In this document: positions 38,753 through 41,465 of the stretch, piece after piece
Layout of the letters: each line of letters starts with the position of its first letter
Numbering within the stretch: the stretch's first letter is position 1
Source: a virus
Length of the DNA stretch: 64,000 bases
Virus record (IMG/VR): IMGVR_UViG_3300042860_001108
Coordinates: 3,176-67,175 of that record
Strand: one strand, 5' to 3'
Notes under the pieces: generated by a model
Seen by the model: the letters and a program-made list of their open reading frames with translations, nothing else
Told to the model about the DNA's origin: nothing
Database searches by the model: none
Program-made: the position numbers and the translations under genes

Positions 38753-38781
38753 ACTGTACATTGTCAAACTGGCTTCGGCAA
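38753..38781 (-). promoter_or_regulatory. Sigma70-like promoter
   Basis: TTGCCG-17 bp-TACAGT on the minus strand upstream of 38722. Confidence 0.5.
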
Positions 38782-41208
38782 CCCCCTTCCTGAAATTTCT
38801 TCTTCGAACAGCTTGACCAGCAGGGCGTTGTCGTCCACCTTGCTGGACAGGGCCTTGAACATGCGCTTCTCGACCGGCGACCCCTCGATGTGGATCACGG
38901 TGACCTTGTCGGAGTTCTGCCCCTTGCGGTCGGCCCGGGCGATGCACTGCACGTACTGCTCCACGCTCATCAGCGGGCCGTAGAAGATCACGGTGTCCGC
39001 AGCAGTCAGCGTGATGCCGTGTGCTGTGGCCTGGGGCTGCATGACCAGCACCCTCGGGTTGGGCTGCGTCTGGAAGCGCTTGATGATGTCGCCTCGCTTG
39101 GTCGCCGTGACCCCGCCGTGGATCTCCTCGCAGGCCACACCGTTCTTGGTGAGGAAGGCGCTGATGGTGCTGATGGCAGCGCGGAAGAGCGCGAACACGA
39201 TGACCTTGCGGTCTGTCTGCTCCAGCGCCTCGAGCAGGACGTTCAGCCTTGGCGTGGCGTCGAACTCGACCACCTCTTGGTTGTCGGTGTAGGACACCCC
39301 GGTGCTGATCTGCAGGAGCTTGTTGAGCACGCCTGCTGCGTTCACGGCAGTGATCGTCTCGCCCGCAGCCATCGCCACCATCTGGTCGCGCAGCAGGTTG
39401 TAGTACTTGGCCTGCTGTGGGGTGAGCGGCACCTCACGTGTGGTCGTGAGCACAGGCGGCAGGTCCAGGCACTGCGCCTTGGTGAAGCGTATGGCGGGCT
39501 GCAGCGCAGCGTAGACCCGGTCAGCAGCGTCGGGCTTGGGAGCCCACTTGAACATGGTGATCTTCTGCATCACCTGATCGCGCCACGCCGTGTAGAACTT
39601 GGGCACGTTGGTCGGGTTGACCAGCCGAGCAAGACCGTACGCATCCACAGGAGACTGCGCAGCAGGCGTACCCGTCATCATCCACAAATACGTCTCTGGC
39701 TTGATGATCGAGTTCAATGCTTTCCAACGTCTTGTTTGTGGGTTCTTATATGCGTTGCAGTTGTGTACTACCCAGTGATCCCCAACAAGGTAGTTAGGTG
39801 TCCCTTCAACTTCGAGGTTGAAGACATCGACGCCGCCTGGGCATTCGATATACGAAACACTTTCCACCCAAGCGTCGCCAGTTTCGCTTCCTTCTTGCGA
39901 TCCTGTTCTTGACGTGCCCGTGACGTGTGGCTGCTGCCATCCACTTCCAACCCCACCATCCGGTCGGGCCACGCGAAGTCGAGCTTGTAGTTCGTAGGAA
40001 AGCCGGGTTGCCTCCCGCCCAACGCTACTGGGTAGTTCCATACCCACCCCGCAGGCAAGACCTCGGAAATCAACCGCTCGGCTGGTGTCATACCCTGGCC
40101 GTTCCCGCCCCGTACTTTCGGCTTGTGACCGATGGCCTTCAGCGTTGCGGACAGCTTCGCTCGATGCTCCGCCGTTTTCGGACCCGTAGACCTGCCGCGT
40201 TGCTCGGGCAACATTTTGTTGAAGTAGCTGGCTCCGGGATTCTGAGAGTGGTATCTCTTCCGTGCGCAGGATTTCGAGCAAGTCAACCCAATCGGATGGT
40301 TGTTTGCCATACCCCACAACACTCGGTGCCGCAGATGGCGAAATTCCTGCCCGCAGGCAAGACAACTCAACACCAGACACGAGCCTTCTTCCCGCAAGAT
40401 TCTTGGCGCAGATCCACCCTGCGTCGGTGAAGAAGGGGTGCTCAGGGGTGCACCGGATGACTTTTCCGTTTCCAAGTTTGACCTCCACCAATCGCGTAGC
40501 AGTATTGCGTACAAGACGGTTTATAGGCGCTATTCCGTCAGAAGTCAACACCCTGTCCCCGGGCTGAAGCTGCTCAATTGGGCGTCGTCCCAGGGGCGTA
40601 GCCACGAACGTGCCCGCCACAAAACACTCATCAACAATTACGAGGTCGAAACGCCCGTCGTTGTTCACCTCATTGGCAATCAAGTTCAGGCCCTCGTAGT
40701 TCGTGATGACGAACTCGTAGTCCTCCTGTATCAACTCGATGCGTCGCGCAGCCTGTGCGTGGTGGGCCACCACTGCGCTCCTGTGGATGACGGAGTTACC
40801 CAAGTCCTGCATCCATGCGCTGTGCATGATCGACAGGGGGCACAGGATCAGGCACCGCCTGACCTCTCCGCGCTTCATCAGGTAGTCAGCCGCCCACAGG
40901 GCGCTGAGGGTCTTGCCCGTCCCGGGTTCTGACAGCACGAACGCACGCCGGTTGAACGTGAGGAAGGAGGAGGTCTCCTTCTGGTGGTCCATCGGGCGGT
41001 AGCGCCCAGGCCACTCATACCTCCCCTGGATGGGAGAGGGGACGTTCTTCACGCCCAGATTGCGCAGCACTCGAGCCTCATCTAACGACCAATAGACAGC
41101 GACTTGGTAGCCACCCTCGATGGGCAGCACCTTGTGCTTGGGGATGATGCTGTAGCGGTGCGGGTGTCGGGTGTTGAAGAGCAGTATGCGGTTGTCGAAT
41201 ATCTCCAC
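38764..41208 (-). CDS. SNF2-family helicase interrupted by an intein (525 aa after splicing)
   Basis: EPGTGKT (motif I), LVIVDE|..|CNAYKN (II), MTGTP (III), HGITLTAA, Q..AR..R.GQ (VI). Confidence 0.92.
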   Translation of the reverse strand: MEIFDNRILLFNTRHPHRYSIIPKHKVLPIEGGYQVAVYWSLDEARVLRNLGVKNVPSPIQGRYEWPGRYRPMDHQKETSSFLTFNRRAFVLSEPGTGKTLSALWAADYLMKRGEVRRCLILCPLSIMHSAWMQDLGNSVIHRSAVVAHHAQAARRIELIQEDYEFVITNYEGLNLIANEVNNDGRFDLVIVDECFVAGTFVATPLGRRPIEQLQPGDRVLTSDGIAPINRLVRNTATRLVEVKLGNGKVIRCTPEHPFFTDAGWICAKNLAGRRLVSGVELSCLRAGISPSAAPSVVGYGKQPSDWVDLLEILRTEEIPLSESRSQLLQQNVARATRQVYGSENGGASSEAVRNAEGHRSQAESTGRERPGYDTSRAVDFRGLACGVGMELPSSVGREATRLSYELQARLRVARPDGGVGSGWQQPHVTGTSRTGSQEGSETGDAWVESVSYIECPGGVDVFNLEVEGTPNYLVGDHWVVHNCNAYKNPQTRRWKALNSIIKPETYLWMMTGTPAAQSPVDAYGLARLVNPTNVPKFYTAWRDQVMQKITMFKWAPKPDAADRVYAALQPAIRFTKAQCLDLPPVLTTTREVPLTPQQAKYYNLLRDQMVAMAAGETITAVNAAGVLNKLLQISTGVSYTDNQEVVEFDATPRLNVLLEALEQTDRKVIVFALFRAAISTISAFLTKNGVACEEIHGGVTATKRGDIIKRFQTQPNPRVLVMQPQATAHGITLTAADTVIFYGPLMSVEQYVQCIARADRKGQNSDKVTVIHIEGSPVEKRMFKALSSKVDDNALLVKLFEEEISGRGLPKPV
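39760..40626 (-). mobile_element. Intein (289 aa) in helicase motif II
   Basis: Block A CFVAGTFVATP, block B CTPEHPF, block F VFNLEVEG..NY, terminal VHN, +1 residue Cys. Confidence 0.92.
39768..40514 (-). CDS. Vsr/DUF559-like endonuclease with Zn and NUMOD3-like modules, nested in the intein in the +1 frame (start uncertain)
   Basis: CLACG..F...TCSKSC; EHRAKLS; TPAE..I; YKLDFAWP...GLEVDGSSH...DRKKE..L..LGWKVFRISN. Confidence 0.82.
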   Translation of the reverse strand: MYAILLRDWWRSNLETEKSSGAPLSTPSSPTQGGSAPRILREEGSCLVLSCLACGQEFRHLRHRVLWGMANNHPIGLTCSKSCARKRYHSQNPGASYFNKMLPEQRGRSTGPKTAEHRAKLSATLKAIGHKPKVRGGNGQGMTPAERLISEVLPAGWVWNYPVALGGRQPGFPTNYKLDFAWPDRMVGLEVDGSSHTSRARQEQDRKKEAKLATLGWKVFRISNAQAASMSSTSKLKGHLTTLLGITG

Positions 41209-41225: not shown

Positions 41226-41465
41226 TTACTTGCCGTTGTCCGCTTGGTTTGCTTTGCGGCTTCTCAGGCGTGTGTTCCCCGGGGTGCTCTTGCCACCCTT
41301 GCGCAGCGGTGTGACGTGGTCGATGTCCTTGCCTGCGCGGTCCACACCAGCCTTGTCGTAGGCCCTGCGTGCGCGTTGGCGCTCGATCTGATCGGCGGTC
41401 TCTCCGGTCGCCTTCTGCAGCTTGTACGCGTGCTTGTAGTCACGCTTGCCGTTGACTTGAGTCAT
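41226..41465 (-). CDS. Small HNH endonuclease
   Basis: DIDHVTPLRKGG....N.R.....N. Confidence 0.75.
   Translation of the reverse strand: MTQVNGKRDYKHAYKLQKATGETADQIERQRARRAYDKAGVDRAGKDIDHVTPLRKGGKSTPGNTRLRSRKANQADNGK

What the first reader, a model, noticed from the sequence alone, without database searches (positions are those of the whole stretch)
39760..40626. Intein whose endonuclease is overprinted in a second reading frame
Seen: the helicase is split at motif II (VDE|CFVAGT...VHN|CNAYKN) by a 289-aa intein with splicing blocks A, B, F and G. Its central ~175 aa in the helicase frame are a featureless S/G/R/A-rich linker with no LAGLIDADG or HNH motif. The same DNA read in the +1 frame is an open ORF that stops 8 nt before the intein end (TAG 39770-39768). 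It encodes a Cys4 module, a NUMOD3-like helix (EHRAKLS) and a full Vsr/DUF559-type nuclease signature (TPAE; YKLDFA; LEVDGSSH; DR....L...GWKVFRI). Established: canonical inteins carry their homing endonuclease in-frame between blocks B and F. Inference: this is a dual-coding selfish element in which the nuclease is made separately, either by internal initiation (a GTG follows GGAAGAAGG near 40370) or by a +1 frameshift, while the splicing frame must stay stop-free. Standard annotation would miss the nuclease. Similar non-canonical phage inteins may already be reported, so novelty needs a literature check.
Basis: partly seen in the sequence, partly recalled or inferred. Interest (0 to 1): 0.93.

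Follow-up and report, generated by a model that had tools for sequence, protein, structure and literature searches.

The report
Helicase intein hiding an out-of-frame nuclease
A lake-water phage helicase gene carries a self-splicing protein insert (intein), and the same DNA read one base out of step encodes a separate DNA-cutting homing enzyme; the layout is real and kept by selection, but the general design has been described before.

Summary
The SNF2-type helicase (38764-41208, minus strand) is interrupted at motif II (VDE|C) by a 289-aa intein (40626-39760). Its +1 frame holds a 201-aa ORF (40373-39768) encoding a Cys4 zinc finger plus a Vsr/DUF559 nuclease (Pfam, PDB profile, fold match to I-Bth0305I).

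It is not an assembly error. The nuclease sits in the same +1 phase inside an intein in 7 of 7 GenBank phages examined, 77 of 80 viral contigs and 29 of 29 strong matches in bacterial/archaeal genome bins.

Substitutions switch codon phase exactly where the nuclease ORF begins. Frame-0 stops are avoided (2 of 5000 synonymous shuffles stay open).

Relatives mostly have an ATG just before the zinc finger, often with a Shine-Dalgarno-like motif, which favours internal initiation. The window has GTG-TTG.

The intein frame folds as a HINT domain with a ~150-residue low-confidence linker.

Of the 78 closest helicase alleles, 77 lack the intein. Intein-free and intein-bearing alleles coexist in three lake metagenomes.

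Out-of-frame homing endonucleases in inteins are already reported (cited 1998/2002 work; 2025-26 preprints). A sense-strand +1 Vsr-like one in helicase inteins, as a large fixed-phase family, was not found in print.

The parts
38764..41208 (-). Helicase precursor ORF (814 aa from GTG): SNF2-related N-lobe, intein, Helicase_C
   Evidence: SNF2-rel_dom 2e-18, Helicase_C 7.9e-16.
40627..41208 (-). N-extein, ending in motif II ...DLVIVDE
   Evidence: Intein-free alleles read VIVDE|ANAYKN.
39760..40626 (-). Intein, 289 aa, helicase frame. Has Cys1, block B TPEH, terminal HN, then extein Cys+1.
   Evidence: C1, H63, H288 and N289 are invariant in 55 aligned inteins.
40342..40626 (-). N-terminal splicing (HINT) part, about residues 1-95
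   Evidence: AlphaFold pLDDT 87-98. Substitutions concentrate at frame-0 third codon positions.
39877..40326 (-). Frame-0 linker of the intein (about residues 101-250): stop-free but poorly conserved and predicted with low confidence
   Evidence: pLDDT 35-60. Mean pairwise identity 0.18, against 0.36 and 0.41 for the two splicing parts.
39760..39876 (-). C-terminal splicing part (blocks F/G, residues 251-289)
   Evidence: pLDDT 93-97. jackhmmer C-domain hit.
39768..40373 (-). +1-frame nuclease ORF, 201 aa. Starts GTG 40373-40371 / TTG 40370-40368, stops TAG 39770-39768.
40384..40387 (-). AAGG, a weak Shine-Dalgarno-like motif 10 nt before the GTG, inside codons of the N-splicing domain
   Evidence: Distant relatives carry GAGG(T) 6-9 nt before an ATG.
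40266..40364 (-). Cys4 zinc-finger module of the nuclease (C4, C7, C32, C36)
   Evidence: C4, C7 and C32 invariant, C36 in at least 90% of 56 sequences. Profile resembles L24e/MYM-type fingers at E about 1e-3.
39771..40103 (-). Vsr/DUF559-type nuclease domain (about residues 91-201), with D132, E143, D145, H149, D158
39771..39876 (-). Doubly constrained overlap: nuclease C-terminus (GWKVFRISN...) over intein block F/G (AWVESVSYIE...)
   Evidence: Few substitutions at any codon position (4/5/5, WIN vs L014). Both frames are about 0.77 identical.
38764..39759 (-). C-extein, starting CNAYKN

Best explanation
This is a mobile intein of the non-canonical kind.

Shown:
- The helicase frame encodes a complete HINT splicing domain, whose two halves are joined by a roughly 150-residue stop-free linker of low conservation.
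- The DNA of that linker, plus the start of the C-terminal splicing domain, is the gene for a separate 201-aa enzyme read in the +1 frame. The enzyme has an N-terminal Cys4 zinc finger, a conserved middle region, and a C-terminal Vsr/DUF559 (EDxHD-like) nuclease domain.
- Selection acts on the +1 frame in the centre, on frame 0 at the N-terminal end, and on both frames in the last ~105 nt.
- The intein is polymorphic in natural populations.

Inferred:
- The nuclease is translated on its own by internal initiation at GTG 40373 / TTG 40370, behind a weak AAGG.
- It cuts intein-free helicase alleles at the DNA encoding motif II (...GTn GAY GAR | GCN/TGY...).
- Repair from the intein-bearing allele then copies the intein and nuclease gene in (homing).
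- Protein splicing restores the helicase, so the insertion is tolerated.

The constant +1 phase across more than 100 loci suggests one old origin, probably a free-standing nuclease gene that invaded a mini-intein. The element then appears to have spread among different SF2 helicase families through the shared Walker-B/DExH site.
For: Nuclease identity.
- Pfam DUF559 is above its cut-off for the window's ORF and for 56 of 56 aligned homologues.
- The profile hits PDB 3HRL at E 2.5e-13 and I-Bth0305I (3R3P) at E 0.0027.
- The model has mean pLDDT 81.9.
- VIA-align on residues ~91-201: 3R3P Z 10.9 (rmsd 3.0, 91 aligned); 3HRL Z 10.6; Vsr 1CW0 Z 10.5.

Intein identity.
- Pfam hits.
- C1, H63, H288 and N289 are invariant in 55 sequences.
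- The model is confident at residues 1-~95 and 251-289 and low at 101-250.

Conserved overprinting.
- The nuclease is in the +1 frame in 7 of 7 GenBank phage loci examined, out of 45 matching records.
- It is in the +1 frame in 77 of 80 viral contigs, with N- and C-splicing domains flanking it in the helicase frame.
- It is in the +1 frame in 29 of 29 strong matches among the 40 loci examined of 68 genome-contig loci.

Selection, window vs L014. Differences are given by frame-0 codon position 1/2/3.
- N-splice region: 12/8/40.
- Central overlap: 79/34/34.
- C-terminal overlap: 4/5/5.
- Amino-acid identity, frame 0 vs +1: 0.82/0.47 in the N-splice region, 0.46/0.68 in the centre, 0.76/0.78 in the C overlap.

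Stop avoidance.
- Pooled over 8 loci, two pairs of which are near-duplicates: 0 of 476 'dangerous' codons end in T, against 325 of 1317 elsewhere.
- Synonymous shuffles keep frame 0 open in 0-15 of 5000.

Start.
- ATG 45, GTG 10, TTG 5 and unresolved 7, of 67 distinct loci.
- A Shine-Dalgarno-like motif is present in 32 of 60.
- GAGG lies within the 'DEV' codons in the Vibrio and Pseudomonas phages.

Mobility.
- 77 of 78 closest helicase alleles lack the intein, including 6 with 99% identical C-extein.
- Contigs joining 39753 to 40627 with 6 other letters between give DE|ANAYK. They occur in 3 of 4 lake metagenome runs laid, next to intein-bearing contigs with 0 differences.
- phi673 has the intein and its 85%-identical sister phi674 does not (PMC6132909, passage read).
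Against: - Nothing here shows that the nuclease protein is made or active, that the intein splices, or which sequence is cut.
- The window's start is GTG/TTG with only AAGG at 10 nt. In two of the five distinct close relatives no Shine-Dalgarno-like motif was found, and in L014 the GTG is GTC.
- Seven of 67 distinct loci had no start within 12 codons of the first CxxC by my rule.
- Foldseek E-values were all above 0.001 (best 2.1e-3).
- The window's nuclease alone hits 3HRL only at E 1.6, so the family assignment rests on profiles and the model.
- The read evidence is from assembled contigs, not raw reads.
- The 80 viral loci were found with two peptide patterns taken from this family. This favours close architecture-mates and may under-sample free-standing relatives.
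- The single-origin inference rests on the constant phase only; no tree was built.
Confidence: 0.88

Rival explanations
1. Artefact or decay: the nuclease was once an in-frame intein domain. Compensating indels, either sequencing errors or real mutations, have left a dead out-of-frame remnant.
For: One relative (L044) does carry the nuclease domain in frame with the intein, inside a 1032-aa ORF. So the two layouts can interconvert.
Against: - The phase is the same in 7 of 7, 77 of 80 and 29 of 29 loci from independent sources.
- The +1 frame is open for about 190-340 codons in all of them.
- The +1 frame is the better conserved frame in the centre.
- It has its own start codons.
- No indels appear in contigs of 4 runs.
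- The GWKVFRI and VESVSYIE motifs use the same nucleotides, so no single frame could hold both.
Confidence: 0.02
2. The nuclease is made by a programmed +1 ribosomal frameshift from the helicase frame, giving an N-extein / N-intein / nuclease fusion rather than a free protein.
For: - The window's own start is weak: GTG/TTG with AAGG at 10 nt.
- The +1 frame is open for about 47 codons upstream of the GTG.
Against: - An ATG sits just before the first CxxC in 45 of 67 distinct loci, often behind GAGG(T).
- In the close relative L011 the +1 frame has a stop between the upstream TTG and the zinc finger, so the upstream open stretch is not conserved.
- No slippery site was looked for. A fusion would also lack the C-terminal splicing domain and waste the helicase.
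Confidence: 0.04
3. The +1 protein is functional but does not drive homing of this intein. It could be a domesticated DNA-binding protein or nuclease used in phage competition, or it could have lost activity while keeping DNA binding.
For: - No activity data exist.
- DUF559 proteins are numerous outside inteins: 37902 representatives at E <= 1e-3, and 11 of 40 genome loci examined were plain DUF559 genes.
Against: - The residues matching the Vsr/EDxHD composite motif are kept: D132, H149 and D158 invariant, E143 and D145 in at least 90%.
- The protein is almost always found inside an intein at one site type.
- The intein is patchily present among near-identical helicases and within single samples. 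This is the pattern expected of an active homing element.
Confidence: 0.06

Closest known systems
Non-canonical inteins with the homing endonuclease outside the intein frame. Sources: actinobacteriophage survey, bioRxiv 10.1101/2025.01.02.630785 (abstract and sections 8 and 15 read); cyanobacterial dnaX intein, bioRxiv 10.64898/2026.09.14.751524 (abstract and sections 11, 14 and 17 read). Both cite Gorbalenya 1998 and Gogarten 2002, which I did not see.
   Same: - The endonuclease ORF lies between the splicing blocks in another reading frame.
- The intein frame there is a low-confidence linker.
- Selection is frame-dependent.
- The proposed origin is a free-standing nuclease gene invading a mini-intein.
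   Different: - The reported cases are antisense LAGLIDADG, antisense Vsr-like, frame-3 endonuclease VII-like and a +2 LAGLIDADG. Their hosts are DNA polymerase, minor capsid, terminase, thymidylate synthase and dnaX.
- Here the nuclease is a sense-strand +1 zinc-finger/Vsr-like enzyme in SF2 helicase motif II.
- The phase is fixed in over 100 loci across phages and many bacterial phyla.
[quoted passage not shown]
Fractured genes: split inteins with a free-standing Vsr-like or GIY-YIG endonuclease gene between the halves (Dassa et al. 2009, PMC2677866; passages read).
   Same: - Vsr-like nuclease family.
- The position is between the intein halves.
- The 3' end of the nuclease gene overlaps the start of the C-terminal intein part (6-69 bp there; here the ORF ends 8 nt before the intein end).
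- Hosts are phage DNA-metabolism genes, including helicases.
   Different: There the host frame is broken and splicing is in trans. Here frame 0 is continuous and under selection to stay open. That paper states Vsr-like endonucleases were not known in inteins.
I-Bth0305I, prototype of the EDxHD homing endonuclease family (Taylor et al. 2011, PMC3239194; passages read; PDB 3R3P).
   Same: - A C-terminal Vsr-like catalytic domain: Z 10.9, profile E 0.0027.
- An N-terminal DNA-binding region followed by a C-terminal nuclease domain.
- A phage mobile-element context.
   Different: I-Bth0305I is encoded in a group I intron and has NUMOD-type N-terminal motifs. This protein has a Cys4 zinc finger and is overprinted on an intein.
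ShiLan-type out-of-frame HNH insertions in phage methylase genes (Arsenault et al. 2025, PMC11855218; abstract only).
   Same: A hidden nuclease ORF in another frame of an in-frame, stop-free insertion. It has a GTG start and its stop lies within the last bases of the insert.
   Different: That insertion has no splicing domain and stays in the host protein, and its nuclease is HNH.

Membership tests
Intein (HINT protein-splicing domain) | Sequence match to splicing-domain profiles above the curated cut-offs | tested here: met
   Intein_splicing 39.7 bits (cut-off 35.8); Hint_2 37.9 bits (cut-off 28.4).
Intein (HINT protein-splicing domain) | Catalytic residues: Cys/Ser1, block B T-x-x-H, terminal His-Asn, and a nucleophile at extein +1 | tested here: met
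   C1, TPEH (T60, H63), H288-N289, then Cys. Intein-free alleles have Ala at +1.
Intein (HINT protein-splicing domain) | Actual protein splicing | not testable with these tools
   Indirect only: the helicase frame is kept open, and intein-free alleles align exactly across the junction.
Vsr-like / DUF559 / EDxHD homing endonucleases | Profile match to DUF559 and to solved family members | tested here: met
   - DUF559 29.2 bits (cut-off 20.6) for the window's ORF, and 56 of 56 homologues match.
- 3HRL E 2.5e-13 and 3R3P E 0.0027 with the profile.
- The single sequence alone is weak.
Vsr-like / DUF559 / EDxHD homing endonucleases | Vsr-type nuclease fold | tested here: met
   - Model pLDDT 81-97 over residues 100-190.
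- VIA Z 10.9, 10.6, 10.5 and 9.9 to 3R3P, 3HRL, 1CW0 and 1VSR.
- Foldseek's top hit is 3R3P, at only E 2.1e-3.
Vsr-like / DUF559 / EDxHD homing endonucleases | Composite catalytic motif E-D-x-H-D | tested here: inconclusive
   E143, D145, H149 and D158 are conserved in 56 sequences and align with EaDGgqH...yD of 3HRL. I did not superpose them on the I-Bth0305I or Vsr active site.
Vsr-like / DUF559 / EDxHD homing endonucleases | N-terminal NUMOD-type DNA-binding motifs (as in I-Bth0305I) | tested here: inconclusive
   No NUMOD family in Pfam. A Cys4 finger is present instead. The region between the finger and the nuclease domain is conserved but unassigned.
Vsr-like / DUF559 / EDxHD homing endonucleases | Site-specific cleavage of the element-free allele | not testable with these tools
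   Only the polymorphism pattern is available.
Non-canonical intein with an out-of-frame endonuclease | Endonuclease ORF between the splicing blocks in a different frame, with frame-specific purifying selection | tested here: met
Fractured gene / split intein with a free-standing endonuclease | Host frame interrupted, so that two polypeptides are made | tested here: not met
   Frame 0 is continuous over 814 codons and in 77 of 80 relatives.

The most novel reading that the evidence does not exclude
Overprinting here is an old, stable architecture, not a transient accident.
- A single fusion of a zinc-finger/Vsr nuclease gene with a mini-intein, locked in the +1 phase, has persisted while the nuclease diverged to below 30% identity.
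- It has hopped between unrelated SF2 helicase families (SNF2, ResIII/DEAD-like, helicase-methylase fusions) through the shared DExH Walker-B site.
- It now occurs in phages of Proteobacteria, Actinobacteria and Cyanobacteria, and in genome bins of more than a dozen phyla.
- The nuclease's ribosome-binding site is written into conserved codons of the splicing domain, and its C-terminus into blocks F/G.

If so, this would be the largest known family of dual-coding inteins. It would also be a contiguous counterpart of the 'fractured gene' split inteins.
Probability: 0.55. Interest if true: 0.65.

Novelty: new member of a known kind. Interest (0 to 1): 0.55.

Why it matters
- Annotation. In all 7 GenBank phage records examined, only a 'helicase' or hypothetical CDS is annotated over the nuclease. 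A whole family of homing endonucleases is therefore invisible to standard gene calling. On short contigs it is called instead of the helicase.
- Evolution. The family links contiguous inteins, split-intein 'fractured genes' and free-standing nuclease genes. The one in-frame relative (L044) and the one free-standing relative (L025) show the transitions that the 'splicing first, nuclease later' models propose.
- Overlapping-gene biology. It offers over 100 natural replicates of about 600 nt of sense-strand dual coding, with a clear division of constraint between the frames.
- Tools. The nucleases may recognise the DNA of helicase motif II, which makes them candidates for new site-specific enzymes.

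Tried and rejected
Coordinate slip.
- Searches used window:39768-40374, one base too long, so they translated the helicase frame.
It says nothing about the nuclease.
- One search's alignment (A1) was discarded and redone as A2.

Nucleotide-level relatives. blastn of 39600-40800 against the phage collection found no match.

RNA structure.
- RNAalifold on 5 close relatives predicts a hairpin enclosing the AAGG and the GTG/TTG.
- 0 of 27 pairs show compensatory change, so no claim is made.

Expression. No RNA holder is listed for the stretch. I tried nothing further.

Context of predicted homologous proteins.
- The profile search found 1000 representatives at E <= 1e-30.
- Of 10 looked up, 6 come from contigs of about 1-1.6 kb, so they cannot settle it.

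Flanking differences. Differences between the window and intein-free alleles seem denser within about 125 nt downstream of the site. I ran no statistical test and make no co-conversion claim.

Other limits.
- Single-sequence PDB search of the window's nuclease gave only E 1.6 to 3HRL.
- No tree was built, so 'single origin' is inference from the constant phase.
- Only 40 of 68 genome-contig loci were classified. The 28 left out were weak matches to the DUF559 core.

Literature.
- Searches found no paper describing a sense-strand +1 Vsr-like nuclease in a helicase intein.
- Gorbalenya 1998 and Gogarten 2002 are not in the searchable library and are known to me only through the two preprints.
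- Supplements were closed and not opened. Supplemental Table 1 of the actinophage survey could list related cases.
- PMC12613952 was seen only as a search listing.
Full report
WHAT IS THERE

The window is 64 kb of a 67,175-base viral record that CheckV rates as complete.

On the minus strand, ORF 38764-41208 encodes an 814-aa protein with SNF2-related and Helicase_C domains. After ...DLVIVDE it is interrupted by a 289-aa insert that begins CFVAGT and ends VVHN, followed by CNAYKN (40626-39760). The insert scores above Pfam's cut-offs for Intein_splicing (39.7 vs 35.8 bits) and Hint_2 (37.9 vs 28.4 bits). It has no LAGLIDADG or HNH match at E <= 0.1.

The same DNA read one base downstream is open from 40514 to TAG 39770-39768, 8 nt before the intein end. 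The third frame is full of stops. The +1 product hits DUF559 at 28.6 bits (cut-off 20.6, E 1.4e-6).

THE +1 PRODUCT IS A REAL, CONSERVED PROTEIN

Its translation finds 45 phage records by tblastn, at about 37% identity and E about 1e-20. Every match lies under an annotated helicase or hypothetical CDS.

I fetched seven of these: Pseudomonas MR14, Vibrio CP-T1, Corynebacterium phi673 and four other Vibrio phages. In 7 of 7 the match is offset by +1 from the annotated CDS. Each CDS has an intein at DE|C...HN|C with a 216-264-codon open +1 segment.

A six-sequence alignment (A2) shows an invariant M-x(n)-C-x-x-C ... C-S-x-x-C finger. It also shows a conserved middle region (N52, R59, P65, R71, K73, T77, H83, P85, GGNG, T96) and the nuclease core (Y129, D132, E143, D145, G146, S148, H149, R154, D158, L165, G169, W170, R174, N177).

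HOW WIDESPREAD AND HOW REGULAR

Searching IMG/VR with A2 gave 88 relatives, of which the best 80 were kept.

In 77 of 80 the nuclease match lies in the +1 frame of an open frame of at least 350 codons. That long frame contains homologues of both the N-terminal and the C-terminal splicing parts on either side (jackhmmer within the set). The three exceptions:
- L025 is a free-standing 267-aa gene with no intein around it.
- L044 carries the nuclease domain, without the finger, in frame inside an intein of a 1032-aa protein.
- L086 is cut by the contig end.

In 76 of the 78 intein-bearing frames (77 loci plus the window) the insertion follows D-E of helicase motif II. L045 and L074 are offset by a few residues. 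The +1 extein residue is Cys in most loci and Ser in five. Three loci end VSN instead of VHN.

Over 67 distinct inteins:
- The site consensus is (nTn)4 GAY GAR | TGY CAY CAY.
- Intein length is 270-372 aa.
- The nuclease stop ends a median of 20 nt (range -10 to 65) before the intein end.

Eight host proteins checked with Pfam are SNF2, ResIII/DEAD-like or Helicase_C proteins. One is fused to a DNA methylase, and two also carry a second, canonical LAGLIDADG intein.

In the species-representative genome collection, 68 loci matched and I classified 40:
- All 29 with long matches are again +1 overprints inside inteins. They come from bins labelled Polyangiaceae, Dehalococcoidia, Dependentiae, Elusimicrobia, Verrucomicrobia, Brocadiia, Pelosinus, Cyanobacteriota, Bacteroides, Lachnospiraceae, Desulfobacterium, a Woesearchaeota archaeon and others.
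- The 11 weak matches are ordinary small DUF559 genes.

BOTH FRAMES ARE UNDER SELECTION, IN DIFFERENT PLACES

A frame-0 stop can arise only where a +1 codon ending in T precedes a codon starting AA, AG or GA.
- In the window, 0 of 42 such codons end in T, against 30 of 159 elsewhere (p = 4.6e-4).
- Pooled over eight loci (two pairs are near-duplicates), the counts are 0 of 476 against 325 of 1317.
- Shuffling synonymous codons within the nuclease ORF keeps frame 0 open in 2 of 5000 trials for the window and 0-15 of 5000 for the others.

Six contigs carry close relatives of the window's intein, all 289 aa and gap-free. L011, L012 and L013 are nearly identical. Comparing the window with L014, with differences given by frame-0 codon position 1/2/3:

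| Region | Differences (pos 1/2/3) | Identity, frame 0 | Identity, +1 |
|---|---|---|---|
| Before the nuclease start | 12/8/40 | 0.82 | 0.47 |
| Central overlap | 79/34/34 | 0.46 | 0.68 |
| Last ~110 nt | 4/5/5 | 0.76 | 0.78 |

Frame-0 position 1 is the +1 frame's third position. The other pairs give the same picture.

Across 55-56 diverse members, mean pairwise identity is:
- 0.36 for the N-splicing part;
- 0.18 for the frame-0 centre;
- 0.41 for the C-splicing part;
- 0.375 for the nuclease.

STRUCTURE

- With a 56-sequence alignment, the nuclease model has mean pLDDT 81.9, and 81-97 over residues 100-190.
- Foldseek's best PDB hit is the I-Bth0305I catalytic domain (3R3P, E 2.1e-3, probability 1.00). 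No hit reached E 0.001.
- VIA-align gives Z 10.9 (3R3P), 10.6 (3HRL, a DUF559 protein), and 10.5 and 9.9 (Vsr) on model residues ~91-201. RAP-domain proteins score alongside, at up to 11.2.
- The sequence profile hits 3HRL at E 2.5e-13 and 3R3P at E 0.0027. Its N-terminus resembles L24e/MYM-type zinc fingers at E about 1e-3.
- The intein-frame model is confident for residues 1-~95 and 251-289 (pLDDT 87-98) and poor for residues 101-250 (pLDDT 35-60).

HOW THE NUCLEASE IS PROBABLY MADE

- Within 12 codons upstream of the first CxxC, 45 of 67 distinct loci have an ATG, 10 a GTG and 5 a TTG. Seven were unresolved by my rule.
- 32 of 60 have a Shine-Dalgarno-like motif 4-13 nt upstream.
- In the Vibrio and Pseudomonas phages the motif is GAGG(T), written in the Asp-Glu-Val codons that end the N-splicing domain, 6-9 nt before the ATG.
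- The window clade has GTG-TTG. The TTG is present in all seven sequences, and the GTG is GTC in L014.
- AAGG lies 10 nt upstream in the window, L009 and L010 only.
- This points to weak internal initiation. I did not test for frameshift signals.
- A predicted hairpin over the start has no covariation support.

MOBILITY

- The 80 closest relatives of the window's C-extein were fetched. Of 78 with enough upstream sequence, 77 read VIVDE|ANAYKN with no intein, including six with 99% identical C-extein. One, on the contig of L010, has the intein.
- L115 lacks the intein but has Cys at +1.
- Nineteen lake-water or freshwater metagenome runs hold at least half of the stretch's sampled words.
- In contigs of four runs that are not marked as possible sources, no indels were seen.
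- Three of the four runs (three studies) contain both forms. One is an intein-bearing contig identical over 39724-40656. The other is a contig that joins 39753 to 40627 with six other letters, which on the coding strand reads GAT GAG GCG AAT GCA, i.e. DE|AN.
- The phi673 paper notes an intein in its helicase and none in the 85%-identical phi674 (PMC6132909).

WHAT IS KNOWN

- Two preprints describe inteins whose endonuclease lies in another frame or on the other strand, and cite Gorbalenya 1998 and Gogarten 2002 for earlier cases.
- The actinophage survey lists antisense LAGLIDADG, antisense Vsr-like and frame-3 endonuclease VII-like cases in polymerase, capsid, terminase and thymidylate synthase genes. 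It calls them rare.
- The dnaX study shows frame-specific dN/dS for a +2 LAGLIDADG ORF.
- Dassa et al. 2009 found Vsr-like nuclease genes between split-intein halves. Their 3' ends overlap the C-terminal intein part. The paper stated that such nucleases were not known in inteins.
- Taylor et al. 2011 defined the EDxHD family from I-Bth0305I.
- An out-of-frame HNH in a methylase insertion is also described (abstract).
- None of five searches found the present arrangement. Supplements were not available.

VERDICT

It belongs to a kind that is already described, so it is a new member rather than a new kind.

What my calls add is scale and regularity. There is one fixed phase in more than 100 loci, one site type across several helicase families, and division of constraint between the frames. 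Ribosome-binding signals are embedded in splicing-domain codons. One in-frame and one free-standing relative exist, and both alleles coexist in natural samples.

Noticed in passing
L044:1334-4432 (+) and L044:769-1347 (+): The only relative with the Vsr-like domain in frame with the intein: a 1032-aa helicase-like ORF with no zinc finger. A separate free-standing DUF559-like gene lies directly upstream.
   Followed up: partly
L025:2285-3088 (+): A free-standing 267-aa homologue of the nuclease (finger plus Vsr domain) with no intein or helicase around it.
   Followed up: partly
L115, at the motif II site (match start 1832): An intein-free helicase allele that nevertheless has Cys at the +1 position (DE|CNAYKN), where 76 other intein-free alleles have Ala. 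It could be a footprint of precise intein loss or a pre-adapted site.
   Followed up: no
L018:364-3807 and L032:664-4299: Helicases carrying two inteins: a canonical in-frame LAGLIDADG intein upstream, and the +1-overprinted Vsr-type intein at motif II.
   Followed up: no
L076, L077, L087 (intein C-termini): These inteins end ...LVSN|C instead of ...VHN|C, so the penultimate His is replaced by Ser.
   Followed up: no
L002:2267-3016 and L006:2255-3025: The nucleases of Vibrio phages CP-T1 and 1.088.O have a duplicated N-terminal zinc-finger module, so their ORFs are about 50 residues longer.
   Followed up: no
window 41226-41465 (-): A 79-aa ORF just upstream of the helicase matches only phrog_4590 (unknown function, E 1.1e-11). 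Its ...DIDHVTPLRKGG...N... stretch recalls an HNH-type motif, but that is my recollection and was not tested.
   Followed up: no
window 39400-41000, runs X11, X12, X15: The summed contig depth of the flanks (22-143) exceeds that of the intein (3-19). The phage population in these lakes may therefore be mostly intein-free, though contig depths are a poor measure.
   Followed up: partly
window 40334-40433 (-): A predicted hairpin encloses the AAGG and the GTG/TTG start of the nuclease ORF. No compensatory changes were seen among 5 relatives.
   Followed up: partly
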